Positions 15,838-56,148 are shown, numbered from the stretch's first letter. The stretch is DNA of 64,000 bases from Candidatus Dojkabacteria bacterium (GCA_050950165.1 JBMNHC010000001.1:191151-255150), one strand, 5' to 3'. Made by a program: numbers and translations. The notes: generated by a model not told the origin, from the sequence alone.

Positions 15838-15876
15838 ACTTCATGCCGATTTCACCTCTCTCTGCTATCCTTAACC

Positions 15877-16311: not shown

Positions 16312-16332
16312 GGACAGACCTAGGACAGACCT
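16311..16332. repeat. Right flanking inverted repeat of the IS200-like element
   Basis: GGGACAGACCTAGGACAGACCT. Overlaps the stop codons of both tnpA and tgt. Confidence 0.6.
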
Positions 16333-17339: not shown

Positions 17340-17374
17340 TTTTACTTACTTAAATTACATTACTCGAATACAAC

Positions 17375-18415
17375 CTACGAACCAACCAAACCACTCCCAA
17401 TCAACATACTATCACCATAACTTAAAAATCTGTACCCCCTCTCAATACCCTCAGCATACGCCCTCCTCACATTCTCCACACCACCAAACGAACTAACAAG
17501 AAGAATCAACGACGAATCTGGCATATGGAAATTCGTCACCAAAACATCCACCACCCTCCACTCGTACCCAGGAAAAATGAAAAGACCCGTACGCCCAGAA
17601 AACTCCCTAACTAAATACCTACCATCACTCATATACGCCACACTCTCTAAAACCCTAGCAACCGTTGTACCGAAAGCCCACAACCTCCCCTTCCTCCCAT
17701 TAATTACCTCTGCTACCCCCTTACTAACACTCAAATACTCTTCATGAATTCGAAAATCCTCAATATTCTCCTCCCTAACAGGCTGAAACGTTCCCCAGCC
17801 AACCCTCAACTCAACCCTTACAACCCTAGCACCTCTTCTCTCGATCCCCTCCAAAATCTCATCTGTCAAATTCAAACTAGCAGTAGGAGCAGCAACAGAC
17901 CCACCCAATCTAGCAAACACCGTATTGTACCTCTCCCTATCCTTCCTCACATCCTCCCTCCTCATATACGGAGGAAGAGGCACATGACCATACCTCTCAA
18001 AAAGCTCCTCACTACTCCCCCTAAGAAAACTAATTAAAAACCCATTCCCTCTTCGCTTACCAACCCTAATTAAAATATCCCCCTGACTACCCCTAAGCAC
18101 CTCACCCTCAAAAACATCCCTCGCTCTACCAACCAACCCAAACCACACCCCACCTCCCAAATCCTCCAAGAAAAAAACCTCAACCTCCTTACCCCTTGAA
18201 GAAATGAAAAAAGTTCTACAATTCAAAACCCTTGTCTCATTAAGAACAACTACATCTCCCTCCCTTATATACTCAACAAGATTAAAATATCTCCTGTGCT
18301 CAATCTCTCCACTCTCCCTATCCAAAACCAAGAGATTAGACTCTCCTCTCTTCTTAACTGGATACTTTGCAATTAACCCCTCTGGCAATTCATACCAAAA
18401 ATCTCTCATTTTCAT
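17375..18415 (-). CDS. queA: S-adenosylmethionine:tRNA ribosyltransferase-isomerase
   Basis: MKMRDFWYELPEGLIAKYPVKKRGESNLLVLDR... N-terminal QueA signature. R/G/V-rich composition. Confidence 0.85.
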   Translation of the reverse strand: MKMRDFWYELPEGLIAKYPVKKRGESNLLVLDRESGEIEHRRYFNLVEYIREGDVVVLNETRVLNCRTFFISSRGKEVEVFFLEDLGGGVWFGLVGRARDVFEGEVLRGSQGDILIRVGKRRGNGFLISFLRGSSEELFERYGHVPLPPYMRREDVRKDRERYNTVFARLGGSVAAPTASLNLTDEILEGIERRGARVVRVELRVGWGTFQPVREENIEDFRIHEEYLSVSKGVAEVINGRKGRLWAFGTTVARVLESVAYMSDGRYLVREFSGRTGLFIFPGYEWRVVDVLVTNFHMPDSSLILLVSSFGGVENVRRAYAEGIERGYRFLSYGDSMLIGSGLVGS

Positions 18416-18503: not shown

Positions 18504-19451
18504 ATGCAAAAAAGAGTAAAATGTGTGTTCTTAGGTAGTAGCTGGGAATCTGTTGAAACCCTCAAAGCACTACACCAAGACAAAAGATTTAACGTAGTAG
18601 GCGTAATAACTGGCGTAGACAAACCAGTAGGTCGAAAACAAATACTAACCCCCTTCGAAGTAAAAAAGTATGCCTTAGATAGCGGTATAGAGGTTTTTCA
18701 TACAGAAAAAAACGTTGATAGGTACCAAAAAGCAATCGAAATCTTTAAACCAGAACTAGTCGTATGCAAGGCATTCGGTGAGCTAATCCCAAAATTCTTC
18801 CTAGAATATCCAAAATACAAAGCAATCAACATCCACTTCTCTCTACTACCAAAATACAGAGGAGCAGTCCCAATTCAAAAAGCCATACTCGAAGGAGAAA
18901 AAGAAACAGGCATCTCAATCATGCTAATGACAGAGAAACTAGATGAAGGAGACATACTAGAAGTATTCAAAGAACCAATACTCCCAACAGACACAAACCT
19001 CTCTCTAAGAACTCGCCTAGTCAAAAAAAACGCAGAAGTAATTGGAGATGTACTAATGAAGTGGATAAACGGAGAAATATCTCCTAAAAAACAAGACCAC
19101 AACAAAGCCACATACTGCTGGCAACCAGATATCTCCAAAGAAAAAGCAGAAATCCGATGGGAAGAAATGGAACCTGAATACATTGAAAGACTAACAAGAG
19201 CAATGATACCATGGCCAGTAGCCTGGACGAGACTACACAACGGCAAAACCCTAAAACTCTTCTCTGTACAACTCCTTCCCATACAATCCTCTCTTGCTCC
19301 CGGAACTCTACATCGCAAAAACAACATGCTACTCCTCTCTACCAAAGACCCAAACCTCTCTATCAGAGTACTAGACGCACAAATCGAAGGAAAAAAACGT
19401 ATGAATGAAAGAGACCTACTCAACGGATTACCTCTTAACAAAAATGCGTAA
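18504..19451 (+). CDS. fmt: Methionyl-tRNA formyltransferase
   Basis: Formyltransferase motif NIHFSLLPKYRGAVPIQ and C-terminal domain. ATG at 18504 is chosen because the longer ORF-track start overlaps queA. Confidence 0.85.
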   Translation: MQKRVKCVFLGSSWESVETLKALHQDKRFNVVGVITGVDKPVGRKQILTPFEVKKYALDSGIEVFHTEKNVDRYQKAIEIFKPELVVCKAFGELIPKFFLEYPKYKAINIHFSLLPKYRGAVPIQKAILEGEKETGISIMLMTEKLDEGDILEVFKEPILPTDTNLSLRTRLVKKNAEVIGDVLMKWINGEISPKKQDHNKATYCWQPDISKEKAEIRWEEMEPEYIERLTRAMIPWPVAWTRLHNGKTLKLFSVQLLPIQSSLAPGTLHRKNNMLLLSTKDPNLSIRVLDAQIEGKKRMNERDLLNGLPLNKNA

Positions 19452-19796
19452 GCACCAAGTAAGCCAGATTCTGTATCAAACGATCATCTATCTATGCGGC
19501 TTTGCCTTGCTCCAAGAGGGGGTTACCACGCAGTAGCACATTACTGCACTACCCGGTGGTCTCTTACACCACCATTTCACCCTTACCCAGCTAATTTATA
19601 GTATGAACCTCTACCTACCACTACACCATATTCATACTACAGATTAGCTGGGCGGTATAACTTTCTGTTGCCCTTTTCTCCGAAAGATCACTCCCTCCCA
19701 ACTTTCGTTGGCTCTTACCTCTAATGTGAGACAACACGGAGTCTGGACTTTCCTCACTAATTATTAATTAGCGCGACCGTATATGATACTTACGCT
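19446..19796 (-). ncRNA. rnpB: RNase P RNA (bacterial type A)
   Basis: The minus strand contains GGAAAGUCCAGACUCC (P4 5' strand), GGGUAAGGGUGAAAUGGUGGUGUAAGAGACCACC (P10-12 region), GGAGCAAGGCAAAGCC, and ACAGAAUCUGGCUUA (P4 3' strand), closely paralleling E. coli M1 RNA. P1 pairing is GCGUAAG/CUUACGC. A TATAAT -10 box lies at 19801-19806 on the minus strand. Ends are approximate. Confidence 0.85.
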
Positions 19797-41815: not shown

Positions 41816-43246
41816 CTAATTAATTCTAGCCAATAGCTTCTGTGCATCATCTGTTGTTAATCTCTGCATATCATACTCTATAGATTTTTTAGAGTAGTTT
41901 CTGGCCTCATCTAAGTTCCCCTCTTGAAACTTTAGATATCCCATTAACAAATTATACCTAGGGTCATATTTATCCAATTCCCAATATGTATCCAGAGTCC
42001 TCTTTGCCTCATCCAATTCGTTATTCTCTATAGCAATCTTTGCTCTCCAGTATAGATACTCTCTCTTGTATTCACCCTCTAACTCCTCGTACTCTACTTT
42101 TTTAGAATAGTACAAAATCTTTTCACTCTGCTTTGTTAAATATGAAAGCTTAATGTAATAGATATCTACCCAAGGCTCTTTAAACAAAAGACTTGCTTTT
42201 CTTAAAACCTCTTCAGCCTTTGTAGTCTGATTATTACTTAGCAGTAAATCTATATACTCTTGATACAACTTAACATCCCCATTATCTCCTCCAAAAGATA
42301 CTGCACTATCATAGTAAGAGAATGCGTTGTTCAAATCGTCTAACATATAGTAATTACGTGCTACTAACCAATATAGATATTGATTTAACTTACTTAATGT
42401 CGTCACTCCAACTAATGTATCCAAACTCTTCTGATAATTACCACTCTCATAGTACCCTTTCGCTAAGAGATAGAGTCCATCTACATACTCTCCCATATCT
42501 TTTTTAACAGGCTCTAATACAACTACTGCTAAGTATGGGAATTCTGCACTAAGATAGCTATTTGCTAACTTAGCTCTGTTGTACAAGTTATTATCATCTA
42601 AACCATTTAAAGTAGCCTTCCAATCAGCATACTCTTCTTTCATACCCTCCGATGGCTCTATTTTAGATATCTCACTCTCTGCTTTTTCATAGTCCGAAAG
42701 AGCCAAGATATATGATGAGATTAATCTAACTTCTTCAACTAAATCTGTACTAAAAGTAGTTTTTAAAATACTCTTCGCCTTTTCAATATCTCCCTGTTGC
42801 AAGTATGTTTTAGCAATATTTAAACGTACAGAGTCATTATCTACATCAGCAGATTTTGCTAATTCAAAACAAACTAATGCCTGAGAATATTCATTACGAT
42901 TATAGAAGGCCTCACCAACATCTTCATACAGCAGTGCCCTATCCTTATCATTTAGCTTGTTCGCTGACTCATCCACTATCTTCTTTGCATCTTCTACTCT
43001 CTGCTTTTCTAAAAGCAAATTTACTATCCTTTGATGAGCTTCAAATTTAGAAGGAATTAACCTAGTAGCATCACTTAAAATCTCCATAGCAGAGGAGTAC
43101 TCTTTACCTTCAATTAATAGGTCTGCCTGAGATATTAGTTGATCATATTTAGCGATATCCTCTTTAGAGGGTGTACAACCAGAAAGTAGCAATACACTAA
43201 CTAAAAGGATAGCCATATACAATATTGTTTTGTGTAAGTTTTTCAT
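41816..43246 (-). CDS. TPR-repeat lipoprotein
   Basis: Lipobox LLSGC at the N-terminus. Multiple tetratricopeptide-like repeats. Confidence 0.6.
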   Translation of the reverse strand: MKNLHKTILYMAILLVSVLLLSGCTPSKEDIAKYDQLISQADLLIEGKEYSSAMEILSDATRLIPSKFEAHQRIVNLLLEKQRVEDAKKIVDESANKLNDKDRALLYEDVGEAFYNRNEYSQALVCFELAKSADVDNDSVRLNIAKTYLQQGDIEKAKSILKTTFSTDLVEEVRLISSYILALSDYEKAESEISKIEPSEGMKEEYADWKATLNGLDDNNLYNRAKLANSYLSAEFPYLAVVVLEPVKKDMGEYVDGLYLLAKGYYESGNYQKSLDTLVGVTTLSKLNQYLYWLVARNYYMLDDLNNAFSYYDSAVSFGGDNGDVKLYQEYIDLLLSNNQTTKAEEVLRKASLLFKEPWVDIYYIKLSYLTKQSEKILYYSKKVEYEELEGEYKREYLYWRAKIAIENNELDEAKRTLDTYWELDKYDPRYNLLMGYLKFQEGNLDEARNYSKKSIEYDMQRLTTDDAQKLLARIN

Positions 43247-43317
43247 ATTTATACCAACTAGATATTCCTAATCCATTTTACACATGTTTTTACAATCATG
43301 CTATACTCCTTAATACC

Positions 43318-44289
43318 ATGCTCAAGTATAAGAGAGTATATACTGATATTGATATACAAAGAAGAAGAGAAAGGTACAAGTTTAAACAAAAGATACTAAT
43401 TACTTTACTAATAGCTGTCCCCCTATTAACCATATTTCTGCTCTCTTCTGCAAACATTTCCGCTCTAGCTAGTGAAGTGAATAACGTTAGTTCGGATTTT
43501 GATATTAAATATCTAGTATTTGGAACTAATACTGAAGTAGAGAGAAGCTCTAGAAGACCAAAGCTCATTCATATAAAGAGAGGAGAATATGTATATACAA
43601 TATTTACACTAGAAACAGATATATACAAAATATTACAGGGATCTTTCATAAGTCTGAATAGTAAAGATAGGGTCATTATCAATACTGAATATATTAAAAA
43701 TGGTAGTTTAGTAAGGATAGTACAAACAGAGAGTCTAATTGAGCAGATAGAGATAGAGATACCGTTTAATTCAGAAACTATTAAAACTGATAAATATGCT
43801 AAAGGAGAACAGAATATCCTTCAACAAGGAGTTTTAGGAGTCAAAACTCAACAATTACTTAGCTACTATGAAGACGGAATATTAGTAGATAGAGTAATAC
43901 TTGCAGAAAGAGTTGTTAAAGAACCTGTCAAGCAGATTGTAGAAATTGGAACAGCTTTCTACTCCCTAGCAGGTATAGAACCTAGAGGATATAACTGTCC
44001 ATATTGGTATCAAGTAGTAGACGCAGGTCCATATACAGAGGAAGAGAAGAGATGGCTAAAGTTTGTAATGCACTGCGAGTCAGGTTGTAATGCGGAATCT
44101 AACAAAAACTTCTACAAGGGACTCTTTCAGTGGAGTCCAACAACATGGAGAAAGCAATTCTCTGAAAATATCTTTGATGGACATGCACAGATAAAAAATA
44201 CTGTTTCTAAATATAGGGCTGGAGAAAGTACAAGAGCAAACCAATGGCCAGCTTGTAATAAAAAGTACAATGAACAATCCTCACAATAG
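43318..44289 (+). CDS. RpfB-like secreted protein: G5 domain plus Rpf-type transglycosylase-like domain
   Basis: Signal anchor. G5-like segment (GEQNILQQGVLGVKTQQ...YEDGILVDRVILAERVVKEPV.QIVEIGT). C-terminal CESGCNAESN....YKGLFQWSPTTW matches the Rpf transglycosylase-like signature. ATG at 43318 is preferred. Confidence 0.6.
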   Translation: MLKYKRVYTDIDIQRRRERYKFKQKILITLLIAVPLLTIFLLSSANISALASEVNNVSSDFDIKYLVFGTNTEVERSSRRPKLIHIKRGEYVYTIFTLETDIYKILQGSFISLNSKDRVIINTEYIKNGSLVRIVQTESLIEQIEIEIPFNSETIKTDKYAKGEQNILQQGVLGVKTQQLLSYYEDGILVDRVILAERVVKEPVKQIVEIGTAFYSLAGIEPRGYNCPYWYQVVDAGPYTEEEKRWLKFVMHCESGCNAESNKNFYKGLFQWSPTTWRKQFSENIFDGHAQIKNTVSKYRAGESTRANQWPACNKKYNEQSSQ

Positions 44290-46371: not shown

Positions 46372-47565
46372 CTACAACTCCTTAATATATTTCTGATAGA
46401 CCCAACCTAGACTACCCTCTTTATACACAATCTCATACCATCCTTCCTCTTTTTTAGTTGTAATAAATACATCTCCGTCATTAGCCACCTCTACTTTTTT
46501 ACAGCTATACCATCTACAATCTCTAATATTTACAAATCCATACTCTGGTGAAACAACCTCTACCAACTTATGAGAACCAGCGACAATTTTAAATTTTACT
46601 TCAAACTTAGACCCTTCAAATAGAGAACCAACATCTTTTGTAAAGACAAATTTCTCTCCATACTCACCAGGTCTATTCTTTGCAGCCATAAGGAAGTTAA
46701 CCTCTATACTATCTCCAGGTGCTAAATACTTCCCTTCGATATATGCTGGTTTACTAAAACTTTGCCAAACTGAATTAATAGCATATGGACTCTCCTTACC
46801 ATTTTCTGTAGAGATATATACATACTTTTTATCTAAAAACCAAGGGAAATCATTCTCATTCATTACTTTTACTTTAACAGGCAACTGCTTCCCTATCTCT
46901 ATCTCTTCTGGATACTCAACGCTCTCTATACTAGCCTTATACTCTAAATGCTCTGCATCAGACCACTTAACAGAACTTAAAGCTCCATCTATCTCTGTTC
47001 TTAACGAAGAGAGAGACTTCTGAGCTACCATATATGATCTTTGACTCTCTTTACTAACAATTTTTAGATCAACAAAATCCCATGAACCTTTCACAATACC
47101 ATATCTGTAAGAGAGAGTTTCGACTAATTCTTCTAACGATGTACTAACTCTAGGTGTTAAAGAAGAGCCGTCACTTAACAATCCAATCAATACGATATTT
47201 TCTCCACCTTGTAATCCTGGATTAGCCCCAACACCTCCCTTTGAAACCTCATACACATTTCCCCCACCATCTATTAAGTAGTTGTAAGGGATATCATTTA
47301 GCTTTAATCTTGTAATACTGTAGTAGTAGATTGCTCTAATTAATCCTTTAGAATTATTCTTTAACTCTTCATTCCCAACATGAACCTGAGAAATATATAT
47401 CTTCATGGGTTGAGAATAGAGGACCTGTTGCTCAGCTAAGGCATCATCTAGTTTTAAATCTTGCCTATTTACCACTTCAAAAGCAGATACTACAGATCCA
47501 CTTGTAAAAAGTAAGACAACAAAAAGAACTAATATTATAAATCTATTTAATATCTTCATTAGCAT
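46372..47565 (-). CDS. Secreted Amidase_2 (PGRP)-like peptidoglycan amidase homologue with C-terminal SH3b-like domain
   Basis: Signal peptide. IYISQVHVGNE...IRAIYYY...DIPYNYLIDGGGNVYEVSKGGVGANPGLQGGENIVLIGLLSDG matches the Amidase_2 pattern. C-terminal GWYEIVYKEGSLGWVYQKYI is SH3b-like. Confidence 0.45.
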   Translation of the reverse strand: MLMKILNRFIILVLFVVLLFTSGSVVSAFEVVNRQDLKLDDALAEQQVLYSQPMKIYISQVHVGNEELKNNSKGLIRAIYYYSITRLKLNDIPYNYLIDGGGNVYEVSKGGVGANPGLQGGENIVLIGLLSDGSSLTPRVSTSLEELVETLSYRYGIVKGSWDFVDLKIVSKESQRSYMVAQKSLSSLRTEIDGALSSVKWSDAEHLEYKASIESVEYPEEIEIGKQLPVKVKVMNENDFPWFLDKKYVYISTENGKESPYAINSVWQSFSKPAYIEGKYLAPGDSIEVNFLMAAKNRPGEYGEKFVFTKDVGSLFEGSKFEVKFKIVAGSHKLVEVVSPEYGFVNIRDCRWYSCKKVEVANDGDVFITTKKEEGWYEIVYKEGSLGWVYQKYIKEL

Positions 47566-47585
47566 ATTGTATCACAAAAGTTCTT

Positions 47586-48554
47586 TTACAAAGCAATATA
47601 TCTAGGATTTACACCATTAACATAAAAGAGAGCAGGTACTGAATACTCTAAATCATCTTTGTACACCTTACATGTACTTGATATCTTAAAAACTGGAAGT
47701 AGATATCCTTGATTAGTATCTTTGTACAGAAGTATTACCTCAGATTTATCTGCAATACACCCTGTCACACTCTCTTCTATCTCTGTCCAAGAGTCATCTA
47801 GGTAGTGTAAATCTAATGTCTCTACTAATACCGAGGTATCTACATAGTGCTCTTTTGGATATTCTTTTAGATTAATATATGTTTCTAATTCCTTTCTATC
47901 AATTAAAGGAAGGAAAAAATCATACTCCTCTATCTCAGCAAGAAGAAGAGATGCTGATACAAGTTTTCCATTTTTATCAAACTTTAAAACATCCGTATAT
48001 TCATATGCATAACTAAACTGTATCGGTATATCTCCTAATACTCTAGATGCATAATATGTAGTGCCTCCATCTAAATCTCTATGTTCTTTGTTTAAAACAA
48101 ATTTATACTCCCAACCTAAATACCTATTAAAAAGTTCAGAAAATCCATCTACTCCCTTCGCCATAGATATACCTTCCCCTAGTTGAAAATTGAGGACATC
48201 TTCTAACGAATTGTATGAGAAAGTACTCTTTCCATCACTCCATTTAATAGAGGTATCCTTCTCTATCTCTTCTTTCTTTAAAACAAGACCCAACTTAGAG
48301 ATCAACTCCTCTATATTTGAAACATGTACTTTCATAAGGACAGAGTAAACAGGAATATCTTTACCCTCTCCCTCCCTTTTCATATCCGATATGTTCACAG
48401 TAACATTACTCTTCCCTAAGTTATTAGCTTCTAGAGGTTCTTCAGGATATTTTTTCTTGTTAACCAAATATATTATCCCTACTACTAGTAATATTAAAAT
48501 TAGGGAAATAATAATTACAAAAAATATATTTTTCTTACTCCATACAATTTTCAT
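47586..48554 (-). CDS. Membrane-anchored extracytoplasmic hypothetical protein
   Basis: N-terminal TM. 322 aa. No recognisable domain. Confidence 0.45.
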   Translation of the reverse strand: MKIVWSKKNIFFVIIISLILILLVVGIIYLVNKKKYPEEPLEANNLGKSNVTVNISDMKREGEGKDIPVYSVLMKVHVSNIEELISKLGLVLKKEEIEKDTSIKWSDGKSTFSYNSLEDVLNFQLGEGISMAKGVDGFSELFNRYLGWEYKFVLNKEHRDLDGGTTYYASRVLGDIPIQFSYAYEYTDVLKFDKNGKLVSASLLLAEIEEYDFFLPLIDRKELETYINLKEYPKEHYVDTSVLVETLDLHYLDDSWTEIEESVTGCIADKSEVILLYKDTNQGYLLPVFKISSTCKVYKDDLEYSVPALFYVNGVNPRYIAL

Positions 48555-48571
48555 ACTAAATATTTTTTAAT

Positions 48572-51196
48572 TTACCTAGGTCTACTACAGCCAGATTCAT
48601 CAGGTACTGAACATCCAAAGCTTTGCAAAAGAGACAGGGGATCAACTACAGACCCATTCTGCTTTGTTTCTAAATGCAGATGAACACCAGTCCAACAGTT
48701 TCCTACTTCTACTTCAGGAGGTAGTTGTACAACAGCAACTGCCTGACCACTACCTAGCTTCTCTCCTAGTGATGCTAATGGTTTAACATGTAAGAACTTA
48801 AAGAAATATGTATTTACACCATCTGAAGCAGTTAACTCTACAATACCACCTGCCTTAGAATTGTCTCTACAGTTAATAACTGCAATTCTAGTAATACGGC
48901 AATCTCCAGAAGAACAGAACTGAGGAGCATAGATATTTCCTACACTTGTTAAGTCAACTGGCATATTACTGGTATAGTTTTGATGGCTCCAACCTTGTAC
49001 ATCTTTGTACCCTTGAGAACATCCGTAAGAGCCTGCACCGAAAAGACATTGTTCTCCTGATGGAGGAGGAATTATAGGTTGGCCCCATGGATATTCTCCA
49101 CTTGTCAACTCTTGTTCTTCATATGCAGAGCACATAATTGTTGTACCTGGTACTGTGTGGTAATACGAAAAGTTTTTCCTAAAGAAAGACTTAGTAGCAC
49201 TTGCAGCTGTAAACCAGACTACTGCTATCACACCAAAAAGACCTATTAAAGCATATTTGGCAATTACAAAAAGCTGACCAATAACTCTCATAACAAAGCC
49301 AGAAATTGCTTGAGTCAACAATGCTGCAACAACAGTTCCAATGGGACCTAAAGTTATACCCAATGCTGCTGCCGCTGCTCCAATAAGTGATCTTACAAAT
49401 ACATCAATACCCCCCTTTGCTACCCATTTCTCTAGTAAGTGCAAAGCTTGTGATTTAACAAACCAATTCCTAACAGTAGGATTTTTTAAAAGCCAATCCA
49501 TTACTTTTGTACGAACATCTTTTAACTTCCCTTGGAAGAACTGGTTTGCCTTCTGCTGTACTCTATATATCCCACTAAAAGCATGGGTTAGTTTTTTAAA
49601 GGTCTTTCCTGAATTTAAAAGTTTAGTTAATTCCTGCAGATCTACATCTTTATTTCCTGCAAGACTATTAAGTAGATTTTCAACAAAAGTATCAATATCC
49701 TTACTACTGAATCCAGCATCTAAAGATTCGGCAGTTATGCCAAGTCCAGCTAACTTGTCAAAACCAGGAAGTTTTTTAATCTTGTCCAACCTATTATTCA
49801 ATAAATATGCAAAGCCTTCTCCATTGTAAAAGAATGTTTTAAATATAGATCTAGGCGTTAAGTAGTTTAAATTTGTCATTACTTGGTTATACTTACCTAG
49901 CATTTTAGAAGGGACCTCTCTTTTAACGAGTATTCCGTCTACGCCACCTACTGTTTTCTCACTTGATGGAAGAAAAAGAGAGTTTAGATTTTTATCATAA
50001 ATAGAGCCATTAAGAATAGAGCCAACAAAGTTAGCACCATAGAGATTAGAGAAAGAGTTGTAATATCCTTCTAACTGCCCAATTCGACCAAGTAGAGTAT
50101 GCCCATTAACTACACGCAAAGCTCCTTTAGCATCTCTCAATTCTTTCCTCAATCTTTTCTTCTCAGCAGAAGTAGTTGCACTTTTAAGATCCGTTCTAAG
50201 TTGTTCTATTGTATTATTTAATTCCAACCTATCCCTATCTAGAATATATCGAGCCTTTTTATACACTCCCCGTTGCTCATCAGAGATAGTAGGATCTGCA
50301 ATTCTGTCATCTAGGTTATCCCTCTCTAACGACTTGTAAAGCTTTCCTGCAAAAATATCTACTCCTTCACTCTCTTTAAGAACTCCACCAACAGCTCCTG
50401 TAAATCTAGTTTCAATATCTGGAATAGTATGGCCATATCTTCTAAATAGCTCTCGTCCTACTTCTAATCTAGAGTTAGCTAGCGACCCATCAGGTCCACT
50501 TTCTCCCAAAAGTTTTGAAAAATCTGCTTTATCCTTCTCACTTAAACTTAACCAACTACTACCAAAAGTTTTTCTTCCTAAAAGTTCAAACGATCTGTTT
50601 GCCATAAAATCAAGATCTCTAGGCGAGAATCTCCCTCCTACAGCAGTTCCCTGTATCTTAGATTGAGGATCTCCTGAATGAGATGCACCATACTGTCCTA
50701 ATGCTCTCTCTATTGCATAACTATCTGCTCTGCTAATAGTTCCTCCTAGTACTGCACGCTTTGCTTCTTCATCTCCATATTTATGTGCCCACGCAGTTGT
50801 GATTACATCCTCTGCCAAAGCACCAAGGAAAAGAGCTCTCTGACTCTTACGGATAGCATTTTGGGTCTTAATTGCTTTATCAAATGCTGCAGCAGGATCT
50901 CGAAGAAAATCAATCATACCCATGGTTGTAAACTTCACACTTCCGTACTCACCATACTTTATTCTCCCTATTTCAACATTCAATGCATCATTAAACTCAC
51001 TGATAACGGTATCTGAAACAAAAGCACCAGGTCTTTCCAATGCAGCAAATATTCCATCTGTTAATTCACTATCTGCTGCTATACCAGTTGGAGTAATGGG
51101 TCTTCTCCTCTCAGGAGGTTTTTTTGATTCTTCAAAAAGAAAATCAAATACACTACCTAAAGCATCATAATTGTCTGACTTAGGTTTATTTGCCAT
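48572..51196 (-). CDS. Large membrane protein: ~600-aa N-terminal domain without signal peptide, TM bundle, C-terminal M23 (LytM) metallopeptidase domain
   Basis: 874 aa. Hydrophobic helices around aa 615-680. C-terminal ...GNCWTGVHLHLETKQNGSVVDPL is the M23 HxH motif. Confidence 0.6.
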   Translation of the reverse strand: MANKPKSDNYDALGSVFDFLFEESKKPPERRRPITPTGIAADSELTDGIFAALERPGAFVSDTVISEFNDALNVEIGRIKYGEYGSVKFTTMGMIDFLRDPAAAFDKAIKTQNAIRKSQRALFLGALAEDVITTAWAHKYGDEEAKRAVLGGTISRADSYAIERALGQYGASHSGDPQSKIQGTAVGGRFSPRDLDFMANRSFELLGRKTFGSSWLSLSEKDKADFSKLLGESGPDGSLANSRLEVGRELFRRYGHTIPDIETRFTGAVGGVLKESEGVDIFAGKLYKSLERDNLDDRIADPTISDEQRGVYKKARYILDRDRLELNNTIEQLRTDLKSATTSAEKKRLRKELRDAKGALRVVNGHTLLGRIGQLEGYYNSFSNLYGANFVGSILNGSIYDKNLNSLFLPSSEKTVGGVDGILVKREVPSKMLGKYNQVMTNLNYLTPRSIFKTFFYNGEGFAYLLNNRLDKIKKLPGFDKLAGLGITAESLDAGFSSKDIDTFVENLLNSLAGNKDVDLQELTKLLNSGKTFKKLTHAFSGIYRVQQKANQFFQGKLKDVRTKVMDWLLKNPTVRNWFVKSQALHLLEKWVAKGGIDVFVRSLIGAAAAALGITLGPIGTVVAALLTQAISGFVMRVIGQLFVIAKYALIGLFGVIAVVWFTAASATKSFFRKNFSYYHTVPGTTIMCSAYEEQELTSGEYPWGQPIIPPPSGEQCLFGAGSYGCSQGYKDVQGWSHQNYTSNMPVDLTSVGNIYAPQFCSSGDCRITRIAVINCRDNSKAGGIVELTASDGVNTYFFKFLHVKPLASLGEKLGSGQAVAVVQLPPEVEVGNCWTGVHLHLETKQNGSVVDPLSLLQSFGCSVPDESGCSRPR

Positions 51197-51212
51197 AGAT
51201 TACTCATATATC

Positions 51213-52691
51213 TTACTTAAACATACTTCCAATTAAAGGTATCTTAGAAAGACTTGCTTTTGCTGCTGCCATACCCTCACCTACAGCCTTAGGCGAACTT
51301 GGTGGGAACCAACTTTCTAAGAACTTAGGAGCTTGTGCTGCAAAGTAGAGTACAAATATTTTAAGAATAAATAACAAAAAACCAGATGTGGCATTGAGCC
51401 CATCTGGGTCATAGACATTTGGGTCTGAATTAACTAATTTACCTGGGAAACTAAGTAATAACTTGTCTCCAGATTTTTGTATTGCAGTTGGAATATTTAC
51501 AATAAAGAGTACTACTGGAAATACTAACACATTCCTCAGGATTGAAAGAAACCAGTTTTTAATCATATGACTATTACCTGGTAGTGCTCCTGCAGTTATT
51601 TGAATGGGAGCCAATATGACAGAAATTAACAGAGAGAATAATGCTTTATACAATGCTATTAACACCTTAATAGCCCCAACTACAATTATACCTAATACTA
51701 CCAAAAGAAGTATTAATCCAATAGTTCCGAGGATTGTAACTCCTTTTCCGAGCCATAACCATTTAGTAGCAGAACCAATTACTTTACTAATCACTGCAGT
51801 TAGTCCTTTTCCTCCAAGTACCAAACTTCCACTAGTCACTCCTCCCCCTATAAAAACTCCCCAACCCATTACTGCTTTCATTAATCCTCCTAGTGTAGCA
51901 ATAGAGCCTGCTTCCATTCCCCCTTCTCCGAAGATAAACACAAGAAGACCTGTTAATACTCCTCCTAAATCTATAATCAGACCTGCTATTGCAAAACTAA
52001 AAGTAGCAAGTACTAAAGCCACTATTACTCCAGGCAATACATTACCTATCGTCACCATAGTTTGCCCTCCTAACTTGTGTCTAAACATAATCATAAATCC
52101 TGCAATAATCATAATAATTACAAAAACAACATATGAAAGATTTAACACCCTGTTCCAGAGACCTACAATACCACTATCTGTTAACACCTGATACCCTGAA
52201 TCATGAGTTGCTGCATACAAGCTAACACTATTCTCTGCATACCCAGGAACCCACTGCTGTGCTAAATGCTCAGGGACATTAACAGTAGGGTATATTGCAT
52301 ATGCAAAATCTCCAGCATCAGATGCTAAACCCAATACTCCTCTCTTTAAGTCATAAGGGATATTAGGATTATGCTTTATTAACTCACTATACTCAGATAT
52401 CTCCTCCCCACCTAATAGGGAAACTCCAAGCCATGCACTATTCATCAGTTGCAATCCTCCGCTACTTGCCATATTGTCATCATTTATATCAGCTCCACTC
52501 ACTTGGTTATGAAACTGTTTAGTACCTTCAAAGTCGGGCGTAATTTTAACATCCTCCTGTGCATATACATTCAAAACACCAAAAAAGAAGAGAAGACTAA
52601 GACAGAAAAGCAAGGAGTTATAAAAGGCTTTCCTACTTACAAAGTCTTTTATACTCACAATCCCCTTATATATTTTGTATGAAATACTCAT
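51213..52691 (-). CDS. Polytopic membrane protein with secreted N-terminal domain and Gly-rich TM helices (VirB6/TrbL-like topology)
   Basis: 492 aa. Signal peptide, ~170-aa extracytoplasmic domain, then at least 6 glycine-zipper-rich TM helices. Confidence 0.45.
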   Translation of the reverse strand: MSISYKIYKGIVSIKDFVSRKAFYNSLLFCLSLLFFFGVLNVYAQEDVKITPDFEGTKQFHNQVSGADINDDNMASSGGLQLMNSAWLGVSLLGGEEISEYSELIKHNPNIPYDLKRGVLGLASDAGDFAYAIYPTVNVPEHLAQQWVPGYAENSVSLYAATHDSGYQVLTDSGIVGLWNRVLNLSYVVFVIIMIIAGFMIMFRHKLGGQTMVTIGNVLPGVIVALVLATFSFAIAGLIIDLGGVLTGLLVFIFGEGGMEAGSIATLGGLMKAVMGWGVFIGGGVTSGSLVLGGKGLTAVISKVIGSATKWLWLGKGVTILGTIGLILLLVVLGIIVVGAIKVLIALYKALFSLLISVILAPIQITAGALPGNSHMIKNWFLSILRNVLVFPVVLFIVNIPTAIQKSGDKLLLSFPGKLVNSDPNVYDPDGLNATSGFLLFILKIFVLYFAAQAPKFLESWFPPSSPKAVGEGMAAAKASLSKIPLIGSMFK

Positions 52692-52713
52692 CTCTCGTTA
52701 ATAATAAATTAAT

Positions 52714-54057
52714 CTAAAATATTTTAACAGGAGTCTCTCCACTCCTTTTACTAGCTTCATCTGTTAAGAACTTCGTATACTCATCTTTAGATGGAGTTGC
52801 CTCTAGCTTAGGAATATCATCAAACTCTGATAACTTTCTCTCTTTATACAGATGAGAGAAGTCCCATGCACATTTAACTGTAGAACTTCCAACAATCCCC
52901 TCTATTCGAACCTTACATGCAGTAGTATAGTATACCTTGTCTGAATATTTACCTGCAGCTGCAGGATACATTGCCACTTTATTCCTAGTATTCATAAAAG
53001 CGTTTGTACAAACACCATCGGGACACTCCTTATCTGAACCAAATGGGGAGTTCATAACAACAATGATATCTTCTACATATATACAATCTTCAGACCTAGG
53101 AATCAGATTACCATTAGCATCATATTTATCCGGTCTATTACACTCATTCCATTTATAATCAGCTATATCTTGAATAATATCTACCAATGCTTGTGTAATC
53201 CAATAATTACAAGCCTTTCTAGATGAACTCGGCCAATCTATAAATTGTGCCTGACCACAATCTTCTATTGCCTTTTGTGCATCTACTTTTTCTAACTGAC
53301 CAGGATATCTATGAGTTTTATTCATTAGAAATGTAGCTATCTTGTTTGACTTATCAGGATTTACATTAGATTTGTTATTACAATGCTCACACGCATTTAC
53401 TAATTTCTGATCAACAACAATATCTCCCTCCTCTGTCTTCTGATCAGGTTTCTGTCCAAAAGCAGTAGAGTAAGGAGTTGCAAAAGGACTATCTTGTACA
53501 GGAGAAGTATATTCTATGATATTTTGACCTGGAGGAAGTTGTACATTAGCAATCTTTTCATCAAACTGTTCTCCCGCTGCTTTGTATATTGGTGTTGTAG
53601 AGGTCAACTTCCTATTCGAATCCTTAACATTAGAACCAGAGAGAAGCTCTAGAGGAACAGAGACTTCTACTAACTCTATCTTTGCATTCTTACTAACTCT
53701 CGTTCCAGATCTATGACCAGATTTGTAATCTACAGGTGTACCACCTTGAGCATTACATACAGAATATGACTGTATCTTTATCTTAGCACTTGTACAACCT
53801 TTAGATGTATCTACCGCATTCAACACTAAACCCTCTTCAGACTCCTCTACTTTCTTAATTGTAGAAGTATCCATACTATTTGATATCTCAGAAGGATTCT
53901 CTACAATCACCAACTCTTGGGTCTGCTGATTTAGTAAAATTGGCTTACTATCCCCCTTTAAGTAATTAATCACCACTACAAAAAGTAGTGCAACAAAAGA
54001 GAGCGTAAACAGTAGCAATATCGGTTTAATTTTTACATACAGCTCTTTTTTCTTCAC
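52714..54057 (-). CDS. Membrane-anchored Cys-rich secreted protein
   Basis: N-terminal TM. About 20 cysteines. KACNYWITQAL motif could be a papain-like or transglutaminase-like nucleophile (weak). Confidence 0.45.
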   Translation of the reverse strand: MKKKELYVKIKPILLLFTLSFVALLFVVVINYLKGDSKPILLNQQTQELVIVENPSEISNSMDTSTIKKVEESEEGLVLNAVDTSKGCTSAKIKIQSYSVCNAQGGTPVDYKSGHRSGTRVSKNAKIELVEVSVPLELLSGSNVKDSNRKLTSTTPIYKAAGEQFDEKIANVQLPPGQNIIEYTSPVQDSPFATPYSTAFGQKPDQKTEEGDIVVDQKLVNACEHCNNKSNVNPDKSNKIATFLMNKTHRYPGQLEKVDAQKAIEDCGQAQFIDWPSSSRKACNYWITQALVDIIQDIADYKWNECNRPDKYDANGNLIPRSEDCIYVEDIIVVMNSPFGSDKECPDGVCTNAFMNTRNKVAMYPAAAGKYSDKVYYTTACKVRIEGIVGSSTVKCAWDFSHLYKERKLSEFDDIPKLEATPSKDEYTKFLTDEASKRSGETPVKIF

Positions 54058-54085
54058 AGGCAGTTGGTATAAAGTAATATACAGC

Positions 54086-55702
54086 CTACTTAATATTAGC
54101 TATTCCATAGTCTGAAAGCAATTTAACAACACTAGGAGTAGTAGAAGAACCAATAGTAGACAAATCTATTGAGATATTAGATTGGGACATTGCAAAATCA
54201 AAAAGCTTTTTACTATCCCCTAGAACATACATACGCAATATATCAGAGTTAGAAAATGAGAAGTAAGAAGATCCATCTTGTGATCTTGCATCACCAACAG
54301 TTAATATCCAATCCCCTTTTTCGTCTGGTATTGTAGAGATATATCCTGAGCTACCAGATGTTCCCATCTCATCTTCATCCACTATCTGTCCAACTAAAAC
54401 CCAATCTCCTAATGTATCACCGTTTGTTAATACTCCAGATTTAGTTTCAAATGGAGGTGGTGTACTCAACAGTGGAAAGGTCTTTATACTATACATTTTA
54501 CCTCCATTGTCGAATTTCTCTGTACCAGAATATATCTCAAAGTAATACTGAGTATCTGGATCTAGCCTTTTTGTCTCTACTGTATGTGAGTAGTAAGAAT
54601 TTCTACTAGAGAGACCATCTCTAACATCTGATGCCTCTTCTGAAAGAGCTGTCTGAGAAGTACCATATTTTACATATCCTTCTTCTTTAGCAGAACTTCT
54701 CCAAACAACAGTAAAGCTAGTATCTGTTAAATTAGTAATTAATACTGTCTTCTCTCCAGCATCCAAAGAAGAGAAACCCTCTCCAGTCACTAAATCTAGC
54801 CATTTCAAGTCATGTACAATCTCGTACTCCATATTTACAGGTAAAGAAGGAGTTTCACTAACAGTAGGCTGAGGAGATGGAGTCGGCTTTGGATCTGGTT
54901 TCGGAGTCGGTGATAAAACTCCTACCCCTATCCCTAATTTAGATTCTTCAGGGAAGTAAGATATTAAATCAGAATTTTGTTCAACACGAAGAGCTAAAGT
55001 CTGATTTAATTTCCCATTACTATCAAAAAGCGCAGAATATTTACCCTCTAGAAAAGCCCCTTTGTCCACTCCACTCTTAGCAACTAATACTAACTCTGTA
55101 TCATCTGTTACTTTTAACATACTTTTATCTGATATCTTTCTAAATGAAGAGAGATCTACAATCCAGTTTGCTCCACTAGGTATTGTAGAAGATACAGGGT
55201 ATGCACTTTTGTTCTTTAAAAAGACATATATAACTACACTATCTGCAGATGTTCCCTCTACAGATCCATGAACAGGATTAGGAACAGGAGTATCAACTCC
55301 TACGGGAGCAGTAGTAAATACATATTCATTTGTTCCCTGTCCACTATACTTCTTACCTCCAGATACGATTAAGAAAGAATACTTAGTATTAGGTTCTAAA
55401 CTTTTTAATTCTACATAGTGAGAAGTCCTCTTCCCTTCTCCCCTTTTATCTCTTACTGGACTCTGCTCTACACCATTTAAAACAGGAACAACATATCCAT
55501 CTGAATCAATATCAGTAAACCATGTAACGGTAAGTGAGTTAGTGGTTAGATTTGTCACTATTACATCTTTTGGTACAGCCTCTGTACCTGCTTTAGAGAG
55601 ATACTGAACCCCTTTATAAACAGCAAAAATAGTTAAGGGTATACCTAGTACGAGAATAGCTACAATTTTTAACTGTCTTTTCTGATAAGGAGTTAATTGC
55701 AT
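54086..55702 (-). CDS. Surface protein with two fibronectin-III-like repeats and a Pro-rich linker
   Basis: N-terminal TM. Repeats VIVTNLTTNSLTVTWFTD..YSFLIVSGG and VLITNLTDTSFTVVWRSS..YYFEIYSG. PTPKPDPKPTPSPQP linker. Confidence 0.5.
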   Translation of the reverse strand: MQLTPYQKRQLKIVAILVLGIPLTIFAVYKGVQYLSKAGTEAVPKDVIVTNLTTNSLTVTWFTDIDSDGYVVPVLNGVEQSPVRDKRGEGKRTSHYVELKSLEPNTKYSFLIVSGGKKYSGQGTNEYVFTTAPVGVDTPVPNPVHGSVEGTSADSVVIYVFLKNKSAYPVSSTIPSGANWIVDLSSFRKISDKSMLKVTDDTELVLVAKSGVDKGAFLEGKYSALFDSNGKLNQTLALRVEQNSDLISYFPEESKLGIGVGVLSPTPKPDPKPTPSPQPTVSETPSLPVNMEYEIVHDLKWLDLVTGEGFSSLDAGEKTVLITNLTDTSFTVVWRSSAKEEGYVKYGTSQTALSEEASDVRDGLSSRNSYYSHTVETKRLDPDTQYYFEIYSGTEKFDNGGKMYSIKTFPLLSTPPPFETKSGVLTNGDTLGDWVLVGQIVDEDEMGTSGSSGYISTIPDEKGDWILTVGDARSQDGSSYFSFSNSDILRMYVLGDSKKLFDFAMSQSNISIDLSTIGSSTTPSVVKLLSDYGIANIK

Positions 55703-55743
55703 CTATCAATAATACAAAGAGAGAGGGATAATAGCAACGATTT

Positions 55744-56079
55744 TTACTCTCTTTTAGATACTATTCCTTCTACAAACCCAGAAGCTGCAGCTAGTATAGA
55801 TGATATCTTTCTTACAGGAGACACTATCGCACTATTTAACTCATATACAGTACCTTTTACTGTAGACACTATCTCCGTAGCATCTTCTAAAATTGTATTA
55901 GCCATATCTACAGTTTTACTAGCTTTCTGTATAACATCTCTAGAATCTGCTACTGCTTTTCTAGACTCTTTAATTAACAGAGCTATCTCAAAGAGAATAA
56001 AGGAGAAAAACCCTACTAACACACCAATAATTATCATCCAATACATAGGAGGAATTGTTTGCATACTTCTAATATTCAC
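55744..56079 (-). CDS. Small membrane protein (DUF948/YtxG-like architecture)
   Basis: N-terminal TM then an amphipathic helical region. Co-directional with the upstream island. Competes with antisense ORF 55697..56101. Confidence 0.4.
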   Translation of the reverse strand: MNIRSMQTIPPMYWMIIIGVLVGFFSFILFEIALLIKESRKAVADSRDVIQKASKTVDMANTILEDATEIVSTVKGTVYELNSAIVSPVRKISSILAAASGFVEGIVSKRE

Positions 56080-56148
56080 AGCTTATATATATTACATATA
56101 ATGACTTTTTACTTAATATGTCAAGCTACTTAATGGTATAATTACTTA

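What the first reader, a model, noticed from the sequence alone, without database searches (positions are those of the whole stretch)
46372..56079. Co-directional seven-gene island encoding only envelope or secreted proteins with two peptidoglycan-hydrolase domains: candidate undescribed surface apparatus
Between pcrA and rsmE, seven consecutive minus-strand genes have short gaps and every product has a signal peptide or TM anchor. They are an Amidase_2-like protein with SH3b, an anchored hypothetical protein, an 874-aa protein with a cytoplasmic N-domain, TM bundle and extracellular M23 peptidase, a 492-aa Gly-zipper polytopic protein with VirB6/TrbL-like topology, a Cys-rich secreted protein, a dual-Fn3 protein with a Pro-rich stalk, and a DUF948-like protein. 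No ATPase, phage structural gene or known secretion-system core gene is present. The combination of wall hydrolases, a channel-like polytopic protein and Fn3 adhesin-like repeats suggests a dedicated cell-wall-spanning surface or host-contact module. In a CPR-like genome with a presumed episymbiotic lifestyle, that would be a host-interface or wall-piercing structure rather than housekeeping peptidoglycan turnover. The envelope-only content is read from the sequence. The functional interpretation is inference.
Basis: partly seen in the sequence, partly recalled or inferred. Interest (0 to 1): 0.75.

Follow-up and report, generated by a model that had tools for sequence, protein, structure and literature searches.

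The report
VirB6-like cell-wall-spanning operon in Dojkabacteria
Seven neighbouring genes of an uncultured ultra-small bacterium (Candidatus Dojkabacteria) form a conserved operon of envelope proteins built around a distant relative of the type IV secretion channel protein VirB6 and a membrane-anchored wall-cutting enzyme. It looks like the wall-crossing half of a secretion machine, encoded away from its ATPase motor.

Summary
The seven minus-strand genes are real, tightly spaced (16-41 bp) and all membrane-anchored or polytopic. The block is not an island. GC matches the surroundings, and the order rsmE | g7-g6-g5-g4-g3-g2-g1 | pcrA is colinear in all 42 Dojkabacteria species loci that span it.

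The 874-aa protein (g3) has a helical N-domain, membrane helices and a LytM/M23-fold domain. Orthologues replace that domain with CHAP or HExxH domains.

The "Amidase_2" protein (g1) lacks all zinc ligands, so it probably binds peptidoglycan (PGRP-like plus SH3b) rather than cutting it. g2 and g5 remain orphans.

The block holds no VirB4, PrgI or pilin. A published table lists VirB4 as present in two Dojkabacteria genomes.

Best reading (about 0.5): the translocon and wall-breaching module of the monoderm-type Patescibacterial T4SS, with the ATPase in trans. Main rival (about 0.3): a VirB6-derived wall-remodelling complex. This is a new variant of a known kind.

The parts
56095..56124 (-). Promoter-like site upstream of g7: perfect -35 TTGACA (56124-56119), a 17/18-nt spacer, then TTATAT/TATATG. 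It lies in the 69-bp divergent spacer between g7 and rsmE.
   Evidence: Read from the sequence. The consensus scan did not list it because its last -10 base rule was not met. Function is inferred.
55744..56064 (-). g7: small protein of 106 aa (111 aa if GTG 56079 is used), with an N-terminal membrane helix and a helical tail. Weakly DUF948-like.
   Evidence: (DUF948 E 0.029). The orthologue alignment fixes the start at ATG 56064. The gene is conserved at this position in 60 loci.
54086..55702 (-). g6: 538-aa surface protein. It has an N-terminal membrane anchor and two [Fn3 + beta-rich domain] modules separated by a Pro-rich linker.
   Evidence: Pfam Pur_ac_phosph_N 5.8e-16 and fn3 1.8e-10. 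PDB profile hits are to Fn3 domains only. Hydropathy.
52714..54057 (-). g5: 447-aa protein with an N-terminal membrane anchor and 12 Cys (10 invariant across orthologues). Orphan fold. A distant relative has an Amidase_2 protein at this position instead.
   Evidence: No PDB or Pfam hit. Replacement at this position in L090.
51213..52691 (-). g4: 492-aa polytopic membrane protein, VirB6/DotA-like. It is the most conserved protein of the block.
49412..51196 (-). g3 N-terminal domain (aa 1-595). Mostly helical, no signal peptide, with a conserved extreme N-terminal motif (YDALGSxFDFxF...KPP..RRP).
   Evidence: AF2 model pLDDT 73.9. No PDB fold match. The motif is shared with dnaA-proximal paralogues.
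49172..49411 (-). g3 Gly/Ala-rich hydrophobic helices (aa 596-675). Membrane segments; the number of passes is unresolved.
48572..49129 (-). g3 C-terminal Cys-rich LytM/M23-fold domain (aa about 690-874): H738..D748, H803, H839-x-H841.
   Evidence: Foldseek LytM probability 1.0. Pfam M23 E 0.007, below cut-off. The HDHHH pattern is present in 39 of 66 orthologues. About 32% identity to the region of SPbeta-group phages annotated yomI/lytic transglycosylase. Orthologues carry CHAP or HExxH domains instead.
47586..48554 (-). g2: 322-aa bitopic protein (N-terminal membrane helix plus about 285 external residues). Orphan and fast-evolving.
   Evidence: It occupies the same position (after the lytic protein) as bitopic proteins in T4SS clusters L091 and L093. 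This is a positional analogy only.
46372..47565 (-). g1: 397-aa secreted or anchored protein. PGRP/Amidase_2-like domain without zinc ligands, a middle beta domain, and a C-terminal SH3b. Probably binds peptidoglycan.
   Evidence: SH3b 3.6e-7; PGRP-SD 4e-4; no conserved His/Cys in residues 35-200.

Best explanation
The block is a vertically inherited operon of the class Dojkabacteria. It encodes the membrane and cell-wall-crossing part of a monoderm-type (MPF-FATA-like) type IV secretion apparatus, or a direct derivative of one, encoded apart from the VirB4 ATPase.

Shown:
- g4 has the VirB6/DotA fold. Its wider family is the polytopic component of Patescibacterial T4SS clusters.
- g3 is a membrane protein with an M23-fold wall endopeptidase domain that is exchanged for CHAP or HExxH domains in orthologues.
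- g1 carries peptidoglycan-binding modules without a catalytic triad.
- g6 is a membrane-anchored Fn3 protein.
- All seven genes are co-inherited in fixed order.

Inferred mechanism:
- g4 oligomerises in the membrane as a channel base or 'stalk' platform, as TrwI and DotA do.
- g3, anchored beside it, cuts peptide cross-links locally to open the wall. Its roughly 600-residue N-domain would face the cytoplasm, where it could dock an ATPase or substrate.
- g1 binds peptidoglycan and positions or limits the breach.
- g2, g5, g6 and g7 line or extend the passage to the surface.
- Energy would come from a VirB4 encoded elsewhere.
For: - Sequence: TrbL/VirB6 is the only Pfam family hit by more than one of 57 distant family members, though below threshold.
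- Context of distant g4-family members: L086, L091, L092 and L093 lie directly after arrays of PF18895/TrbC pilins. In L091 and L093 they lie within 10 kb of PrgI and TraC-like genes.
- Architectural parallel: those clusters hold a protein with g3's layout (soluble N-domain, membrane helices, C-terminal M23 in L093 or HExxH in L091), followed by a bitopic protein. This mirrors the g3-g2 order and the M23/HExxH swap among g3 orthologues.
- Synteny: 42 of 42 loci are colinear.
- Operon-like spacing, one promoter-like site, and no more terminator-like sites than chance.
- Table S1 of PMC12102498 lists VirB4 as present in two Dojkabacteria genomes.
Against: - No VirB4, PrgI/VirB3, TrsD, pilin or coupling protein lies in the block, in the 64-kb window, or within 10 kb in any related locus.
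- g3, g2, g5, g6 and g7 show no detectable sequence homology to any T4SS component.
- The g4 model is only moderately confident (pLDDT 65.8).
- g4 gets no Pfam hit itself, and the TrbL hits in its relatives are below threshold.
- The housekeeping neighbourhood and class-wide conservation would also fit a wall-maintenance role.
- Dojkabacteria have further g4/g3-like pairs near dnaA. Which copy, if any, works with VirB4 is unknown.
Confidence: 0.5

Rival explanations
1. A wall-remodelling or envelope-biogenesis complex with no secretion role. A VirB6-derived polytopic protein would have been co-opted as a membrane scaffold for a regulated endopeptidase (g3) and a peptidoglycan-binding partner (g1). 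The complex would serve growth, division or surface-layer assembly and would need no ATPase.
For: - No ATPase lies in cis or nearby.
- The block is universal and positionally fixed among housekeeping genes, and is possibly co-transcribed with pcrA.
- A G5 domain protein sits just beyond pcrA in conserved synteny, and a YkuD L,D-transpeptidase lies at 1681-2547 of the window.
- g1 is non-catalytic, like regulators or targeting subunits of autolysins.
Against: - Distant members of the g4 family sit in T4SS clusters.
- Frequent swapping of the lytic domain (M23, CHAP, HExxH) and extra Fn3/Cys-rich surface proteins in some lineages look more like an externally directed, diversifying system than a housekeeping autolysin.
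Confidence: 0.3
2. The seven genes are functionally unrelated envelope proteins. They stay adjacent only because gene order in these small genomes is very stable.
For: The flanking housekeeping genes (pnp, rsmF, rsmE, pcrA, G5, TPR) are just as syntenic. g2, g5 and g7 have no assignable function.
Against: - The genes share one strand with 16-41 bp gaps and no internal promoter or terminator signal above chance.
- The g4-g3 pairing recurs in a second, paralogous locus near dnaA.
- The same set (g7, g6, g4, g3, g2, g1) persists in the much more distant L090 even though g5 is replaced.
Confidence: 0.12
3. A domesticated prophage tail remnant. g3 would be a tape-measure protein with a lytic domain, and the Fn3 proteins would be fibres.
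For: - Weak PHROG tape-measure hits (E 0.016-0.03).
- The top BFVD matches are a 1,450-aa phage 'Peptidase' and a tape-measure protein (E 1e-4, but TM-score about 0.1).
- The M23 end resembles the region of SPbeta-group phages annotated yomI/lytic transglycosylase.
Against: - There are no capsid, tail-tube, baseplate, terminase or integrase genes.
- No relative of g4 or of the g3 N-domain is found on 2.9 million IMG/VR contigs.
- Composition matches the host genome.
- The block is class-wide and vertically inherited at one locus.
- The phage matches are to the M23 domain or to generic long helices only.
Confidence: 0.03

Closest known systems
Patescibacterial T4SS (the VirB4 'Patescibacteria clade' nested in MPF-FATA; e.g. 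Southlakia epibionticum SEML1_0006-0019, essential for epibiotic growth; PMC12102498, PMC10633639)
   Same: - Monoderm envelope.
- A large, divergent VirB6-like polytopic protein. The g4 family is found in such clusters.
- An associated membrane protein with an M23 or other lytic domain, followed by a bitopic protein.
- Chromosomal, non-mobile location with no relaxase.
   Different: - This block has no VirB4, TrsD, PrgI or VirB2-like pilin array.
- It has an Fn3 surface protein, a Cys-rich protein and a PGRP/SH3b protein that are not described for those clusters.
- It lies between rsmE and pcrA rather than next to virB4.
- Only g4 is demonstrably homologous to a component of those clusters.
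Gram-positive conjugative channel genes PrgH (VirB6-like), PrgK (wall hydrolase) and PrgL (VirB8-like) of pCF10; equivalents in ICEBs1 and pIP501. The pCF10 roles are as summarised in PMC12102498; the ICEBs1 and pIP501 equivalents are from my own knowledge.
   Same: The same trio of roles in the same order: a polytopic channel protein, a membrane-anchored multi-domain wall hydrolase, and a bitopic protein. The lytic domains are modular.
   Different: - PrgK-type hydrolases have a short N-terminus, not a roughly 600-residue N-domain.
- No sequence homology was found.
- The fold of g2 is untested, so the VirB8/NTF2 likeness is unknown.
- The conjugative systems always carry VirB4 and a coupling protein in cis.
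TrwI/VirB6 of plasmid R388 (PDB 7o3v) and DotA of the Legionella Dot/Icm system (PDB 9ngy)
   Same: They are the best and second-best structural matches of the g4 model. All are polytopic helical proteins with an extracytoplasmic region.
   Different: - Sequence identity is only 10-13%.
- Those are diderm systems with outer-membrane core complexes.
- g4 does not reach the Pfam TrbL threshold.
- The oligomeric state of g4 is unknown.
SPbeta YomI/CwlP and other phage tape-measure proteins that end in an M23 domain. The DD-endopeptidase activity of CwlP is from my own knowledge.
   Same: A long helical protein with Gly-rich hydrophobic segments and a C-terminal M23 domain. The last 93 residues are about 32% identical.
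   Different: There is no phage context, no relatives on viral contigs, and the N-domain is unrelated.

Membership tests
Type IV secretion system gene cluster (monoderm MPF-FATA / Patescibacteria clade) | VirB4 ATPase encoded in or next to the cluster (the hallmark of all T4SS) | tested here: not met
   None of the seven proteins gives a P-loop or VirB4 hit. The window has no other ORF of 600 aa or more apart from those annotated, via syntenic orthologues, as EF-G, PNPase and PcrA, and the largest other ORFs are housekeeping or unassigned. None lies within 10 kb in L001-L003. VirB4 is reported elsewhere in two Dojkabacteria genomes (PMC12102498 Table S1).
Type IV secretion system gene cluster (monoderm MPF-FATA / Patescibacteria clade) | VirB6-like polytopic membrane protein | tested here: met
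Type IV secretion system gene cluster (monoderm MPF-FATA / Patescibacteria clade) | VirB3/PrgI-like small membrane protein | tested here: not met
   No PrgI (PF12666) hit for g7 or any other block protein at E up to 1.
Type IV secretion system gene cluster (monoderm MPF-FATA / Patescibacteria clade) | VirB2-like pilin genes (common in Patescibacterial clusters) | tested here: not met
   An HMM built from 19 pilins of L086 and L091-L093 finds none in the window or in any Dojkabacteria locus.
Type IV secretion system gene cluster (monoderm MPF-FATA / Patescibacteria clade) | Dedicated peptidoglycan hydrolase (VirB1 role) | tested here: met
   g3 has an M23-fold C-terminal domain. This matches by role and architecture only; there is no homology to the T4SS-cluster hydrolases L093_984 and L091_1154.
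Type IV secretion system gene cluster (monoderm MPF-FATA / Patescibacteria clade) | VirB8-like (NTF2-fold) bitopic protein | tested here: inconclusive
   g2 has the right size, topology and position, but no sequence or profile hit.
TrbL/VirB6 (Pfam PF04610) | Score above the Pfam gathering threshold | tested here: not met
   g4 has no hit. Three of 57 distant relatives hit TrbL below threshold, with best E 5.4e-4.
TrbL/VirB6 (Pfam PF04610) | Fold superposable on a solved VirB6 | tested here: met
Peptidase M23 (LytM-type) | LytM beta-sheet core fold | tested here: met
   Foldseek 2b13/1qwy LytM, probability 1.0. M23 domains dominate the BFVD hits.
Peptidase M23 (LytM-type) | HxxxD and HxH zinc/catalytic motifs | tested here: inconclusive
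   HxH (H839-L-H841) and H803 are present and conserved. The first motif is H738-x9-D748 rather than HxxxD. Whether H738 reaches the metal site could not be checked because no coordinates were available. Pfam score is 17 bits, below the 28.7 cut-off.
Amidase_2 / PGRP N-acetylmuramoyl-L-alanine amidase | His-His-Cys(Asp) zinc triad | tested here: not met
   No His or Cys reaches 30% frequency in residues 35-200 of 34 g1 orthologues; the only position above 20% is residue 88 (His in 9 of 34). Similarity is to the PGRP core only (E 4e-4, best hit PGRP-SD).
Phage tail tape-measure protein / prophage | Lies among phage tail/head genes; relatives occur on viral contigs | tested here: not met
   There are no phage genes in the block or flanks. 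No relatives are found in IMG/VR. The phage matches are confined to the M23 domain.

The most novel reading that the evidence does not exclude
The block is a self-contained, ATPase-independent wall-piercing device that evolved from a T4SS. In this reading g3 is not a resident membrane protein. It is passed through or alongside the VirB6-like g4 platform like a phage tape-measure protein. Its Gly-rich hydrophobic helices then insert into the host cell's membrane, and its exchangeable lytic head (M23, CHAP or HExxH, matched to the host wall) opens the host envelope. The conserved N-terminal motif shared by all g3 paralogues would be the recognition signal.
Probability: 0.08. Interest if true: 0.85.

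Novelty: new variant of a known kind. Interest (0 to 1): 0.55.

Why it matters
The T4SS is one of the few machines shown to be essential for the epibiotic life of Patescibacteria (PMC10633639). The published survey could find VirB6 in only a minority of genomes and suggested extreme divergence (PMC12102498).

The g4 family found here has at least 3,388 clusters at 50% identity. It has a VirB6/DotA-like fold and sits next to pilin arrays, PrgI and TraC-like genes. It is a strong candidate for that missing component.

The Dojkabacteria operon shows that this component, together with a lytic protein carrying exchangeable heads and several surface proteins, can be kept as a fixed core operon far from virB4. 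That gives concrete candidates for the host-facing parts of the machine in an uncultured class. It also raises a testable question: can a VirB6-based module work without a dedicated ATPase?

Tried and rejected
- Direct family scans (Pfam, NCBIfam, PHROGs) of the seven proteins gave mostly sub-threshold hits.
- PDB sequence and profile searches found nothing for g2, g4 and g5. For g3 the only match was a non-significant one (E 0.67) over the hydrophobic segment.
- The g3 N-domain has no fold match in the PDB. A profile search with the N-domain alone recovered only Dojkabacteria orthologues.
- hhalign of the g1-g7 profiles against every protein of the T4SS clusters L091-L093 linked only g4. Homology of g3 and g2 to the T4SS-cluster hydrolase and bitopic proteins is therefore not claimed.
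- An apparent g5 match to VirB6-like proteins was an artefact of one read-through g5-g4 ORF in my alignment. It disappeared after that sequence was removed.
- The prophage idea was rejected.
- The AFDB fold library was unavailable.
- I could not locate virB4 in a Dojkabacteria genome.

Full report
**Observation**

The window comes from a Candidatus Dojkabacteria (WS6, Patescibacteria/CPR) genome. The 492-aa protein is identical to NCBI ACOX0X_01310, on a 724,554-bp contig.

| Gene | Coordinates | Length |
|---|---|---|
| g1 | 46372-47565 | 397 aa |
| g2 | 47586-48554 | 322 aa |
| g3 | 48572-51196 | 874 aa |
| g4 | 51213-52691 | 492 aa |
| g5 | 52714-54057 | 447 aa |
| g6 | 54086-55702 | 538 aa |
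| g7 | 55744-56079 | 111 aa |

- Gaps between the genes are 16-41 bp. The next gene downstream, after 66 bp, is pcrA. Upstream, rsmE is divergent across a 69-bp spacer.
- That spacer holds a perfect TTGACA followed, after 17/18 nt, by TTATAT/TATATG.
- Terminator-like hairpins inside the block are no more frequent than in shuffled sequence (6 found against 6.5 expected).
- An alignment of 36 orthologues shows that g7 really starts at ATG 56064, giving 106 aa.
- A hydropathy scan confirms an N-terminal hydrophobic segment in g1, g2, g5, g6 and g7, six segments in g4, and an internal hydrophobic block at residues 596-668 in g3.
- GC content (0.34-0.38) is the same as in the flanks, so this is not a compositional island.

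**Conservation**

A degenerate-pattern scan of one genome per GTDB species found relatives of g4 in 203 stretches. The best 80 loci are almost all labelled Dojkabacteria or WS6, or carry default or apparently mistaken bin names.

tblastn of the window's proteins against these loci gives the order pnp-rsmF-rsmE | g7 g6 g5 g4 g3 g2 g1 | pcrA-G5 protein-TPR protein everywhere.

- Of the 80 loci, 42 span g7 to pcrA. All 42 are colinear on one strand.
- All eight genes are detected in 27 of them.
- g2 is the fastest-evolving gene (22-55% identity). It escapes tblastn in 14 loci, but in 12 of these a gap of 1.2-1.9 kb, about the size of g2, remains; the other two gaps are about 3.4 kb.
- Identity ranges are 31-71% for g4, 36-72% for g1, 34-69% for g6, 22-58% for g3 and 21-69% for g5.

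Some lineages add a further 1,014-1,418-aa membrane-anchored Fn3 plus Cys-rich protein between rsmE and g7.

A more distant genome (L090, PcrA only 52% identical) keeps g7, g6, two copies of g4, g3, g2, g1 and pcrA. At the g5 position it has an unrelated 765-aa protein with a genuine Amidase_2 domain.

**g4 is VirB6-like**

g4 has no Pfam, NCBIfam or PDB sequence hit.

- Everything below is generic helical bundles and GPCRs.

An exhaustive HMMER search with the g4 profile found 3,388 cluster representatives at E of 1e-3 or better, 822 of them at 1e-30 or better. Many are 460-880 aa and match only the membrane core. Among 57 such distant members, TrbL/VirB6 is the only Pfam family hit more than once (3 members, best E 5.4e-4, below threshold).

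Gene context then decides the family's identity. In L086, L091, L092 and L093 the g4-like gene follows an ECF sigma factor, an array of five or more PF18895/TrbC T4SS pilins, and a 1,160-1,450-aa secreted Cys-rich glycosidase-like protein. In L091 and L093, PrgI (VirB3-like) and a TraC-like gene lie 8-10 kb downstream.

This is the Patescibacterial T4SS described in PMC12102498 and, for Southlakia, in PMC10633639. That survey found VirB6 in only 480 proteins across 3,035 genomes and suggested extreme divergence. The g4 family is a good candidate for the missing component.

**g3**

The AlphaFold2 model has a mean pLDDT of 73.9. It shows three parts:

- a mostly helical N-terminal region of about 600 residues with no signal peptide;
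- Gly/Ala-rich membrane helices at about residues 597-675;
- a C-terminal beta domain that Foldseek matches to LytM with probability 1.0.

The conserved residues are H738, D748, H803 and H839-x-H841. This pattern is present in 39 of 66 orthologues. The first motif has non-canonical spacing (H-x9-D instead of HxxxD), so activity is likely but unproven.

The last 93 residues are about 32% identical to the region of SPbeta-group phages annotated yomI/lytic transglycosylase.

Orthologues with the same N-domain carry a different head. One has a CHAP domain (P0148). About a third have a Cys-rich HExxH metalloprotease-like domain. One has a canonical M23.

- The N-domain has no fold match in the PDB.
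- The top matches in the viral structure library are a phage 'Peptidase' and a tape-measure protein, but with TM-scores near 0.1. That indicates similar architecture, not a shared fold.
- For the lytic head to be outside the cell, the hydrophobic block must cross the membrane an odd number of times. This is not resolved.

**Paralogous locus near dnaA**

Dojkabacteria and their relatives have a second set near dnaA: rpmH-rnpA-yidD-yidC-jag-Wzy_C, then a 233-238-aa Cys-rich protein, one or two g4-like proteins (635-878 aa), and a 677-770-aa protein. That last protein shares g3's extreme N-terminal motif (YDSVFDFIF...KP..P) and ends in a membrane helix with no lytic head.

One of these proteins is annotated as coming from a Candidatus Dojkabacteria MAG. 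The g4-g3 pairing is therefore a recurring unit. No VirB4 lies within 10 kb of this locus either.

**Parallel with true T4SS clusters**

In L093 a 984-aa protein has a soluble N-region, membrane helices and an M23 domain that scores above the Pfam threshold (30.9 bits). In L091 its homologue (1,154 aa) ends in an HExxH domain instead. Each is followed by a bitopic protein (334 or 197 aa), then PrgI and a TraC-like gene.

This copies the g3-g2 order and the same M23/HExxH exchange. However, hhalign finds no sequence homology between these proteins and g3 or g2. I treat this as an architectural analogy, not as family membership.

**The other proteins**

- **g1.** It has a solid C-terminal SH3b domain (profile E 3.6e-7 against a clostridial autolysin). 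Its N-terminal region resembles the PGRP/Amidase_2 core (E 4e-4, best hit PGRP-SD). No His or Cys is conserved anywhere in residues 35-200, so the zinc triad is absent. g1 most likely binds peptidoglycan rather than cutting it.
- **g6.** It is anchored by an N-terminal membrane helix and has two Fn3 domains (Pfam 5.8e-16 and 1.8e-10). Each Fn3 is followed by an unassigned beta-rich region, and the two halves are separated by a Pro-rich linker.
- **g5.** It has 12 Cys, 10 of them invariant, and no detectable relatives of known function.
- **g2.** It likewise has no detectable relatives of known function.
- **g7.** It is only weakly DUF948-like (E 0.029).

**What is missing**

- None of the seven proteins has a P-loop or a VirB4, PrgI or pilin hit.
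- The largest other ORFs in the rest of the window that I scanned are housekeeping or unassigned: aminoacyl-tRNA synthetases, RNase Y, tgt, queA, IF-2 and NusA. The remaining stretch (about 21-39 kb) carries a run of small minus-strand ORFs that I read as ribosomal-protein genes but did not scan, followed by an EF-G-like gene. No ATPase of VirB4 size is present.
- A pilin HMM that I built from 19 sequences finds nothing in the window or in any Dojkabacteria locus.
- Table S1 of PMC12102498 lists the two Dojkabacteria genomes I checked (of five mentions) as 'Presence of VirB4: Yes'. The ATPase therefore exists elsewhere in this class, but I could not see its neighbourhood.

**Interpretation**

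The best reading (about 0.5) is that the operon encodes the translocon and wall-breaching part of the monoderm-type Patescibacterial T4SS, or a derivative of it, with the ATPase supplied in trans.

- g4 would form an oligomeric membrane platform, as TrwI and DotA do.
- g3 would cut wall cross-links locally, and its large N-domain would face the cytoplasm.
- g1 would bind the wall.
- g2, g5, g6 and g7 would build the passage outward.

Only the fold of g4, the domain content, the family context and the co-inheritance are shown. Assembly, topology and function are inferred.

The rivals are:

- A VirB6-derived but non-secretory wall-remodelling complex (about 0.3). The housekeeping position and the lack of an ATPase in cis favour it.
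- Mere conserved adjacency of unrelated genes (about 0.12). The recurring g4-g3 pairing and the operon-like structure argue against it.
- A prophage tail remnant (about 0.03). There are no relatives in IMG/VR, no g4 relatives in the plasmid collection, and phage matches only to the M23 domain.

**Novelty and verdict**

The general kind of system, a monoderm T4SS in CPR bacteria, is known. Three things are new:

- a large, unannotated VirB6-like family;
- a class-wide core operon that couples it to a lytic protein with exchangeable heads, a non-catalytic PGRP/SH3b protein and Fn3/Cys-rich surface proteins;
- its separation from virB4.

I rate it a new variant of a known kind, with interest about 0.55. 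Its interpretation is partly supported: the wall-spanning module and the VirB6-like guess hold, but 'no secretion core gene', 'two hydrolases' and 'island' do not.

Noticed in passing
window 14036-18415: GC rises to 0.42-0.47 against about 0.35 elsewhere. The stretch holds RNase Y (14036-15568), tRNA-guanine transglycosylase tgt (16320-17339) and queA (17375-18415). The tgt-queA pair may be a recent horizontal acquisition. No extra RNA family is found there apart from RNase P RNA at 19444-19793.
   Followed up: partly
window 43225-44289 (+): A G5-domain protein (Pfam 3.5e-16) with an N-terminal membrane helix and a Cys-containing C-terminal region. From memory, that region looks like an Rpf/transglycosylase-like domain; this was not tested. 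It is conserved next to pcrA in all Dojkabacteria loci and could be another wall-active protein beside the block. The listed TTG start is probably too far upstream.
   Followed up: partly
L088 7349-14709; L084 9279-14254; L089 9280-14227: A second, paralogous cluster near dnaA in Dojkabacteria and relatives. It holds a 233-238-aa Cys-rich secreted protein, one or two VirB6-like proteins (635-878 aa), and a 677-770-aa g3-like protein without a lytic domain.
   Followed up: partly
L036 3553-6597; L058 915-5171: In some Dojkabacteria lineages an extra 1,014-1,418-aa membrane-anchored protein is inserted between rsmE and g7. It has an N-terminal Fn3, a long Cys-rich and Pro/Thr-rich repeat region, and a conserved C-terminal domain. 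The surface part of the module therefore expands.
   Followed up: partly
window 48572-51196, residues 1-60 of g3: The extreme N-terminus (M..K.K..NYDALGSxFDFxF.E..KPP.KRRPI.PTG) is the part best conserved between g3 and its dnaA-proximal paralogues, yet it is modelled with low confidence (pLDDT 38-54). It looks like a short linear docking or recognition motif. Its partner is unknown.
   Followed up: no
L090 5069-5932 (-): A DsbA/thioredoxin-like gene sits inside the diverged version of the block, between the g7 and g6 homologues. This fits disulfide formation in the many Cys-rich external domains of the module.
   Followed up: no
window 11801-13180 (-) and 1681-2547 (-): A 459-aa protein with a CAP/SCP domain (Pfam 1.7e-21) and a YkuD L,D-transpeptidase (1.9e-13). 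These are further secreted or wall-active proteins in the window. The 543-aa ORF at 5142-6773 has no Pfam hit.
   Followed up: no
L093 5667-10019; L091 6385-9930; L086 6502-9981: In Patescibacterial T4SS clusters the gene between the pilin array and the VirB6-like gene encodes a 1,160-1,450-aa secreted, Cys-rich protein. It has glycosidase-like domains (NAGPA 1e-7; GH5-like 1e-3), possibly a host-wall-directed enzyme of the T4SS.
   Followed up: no
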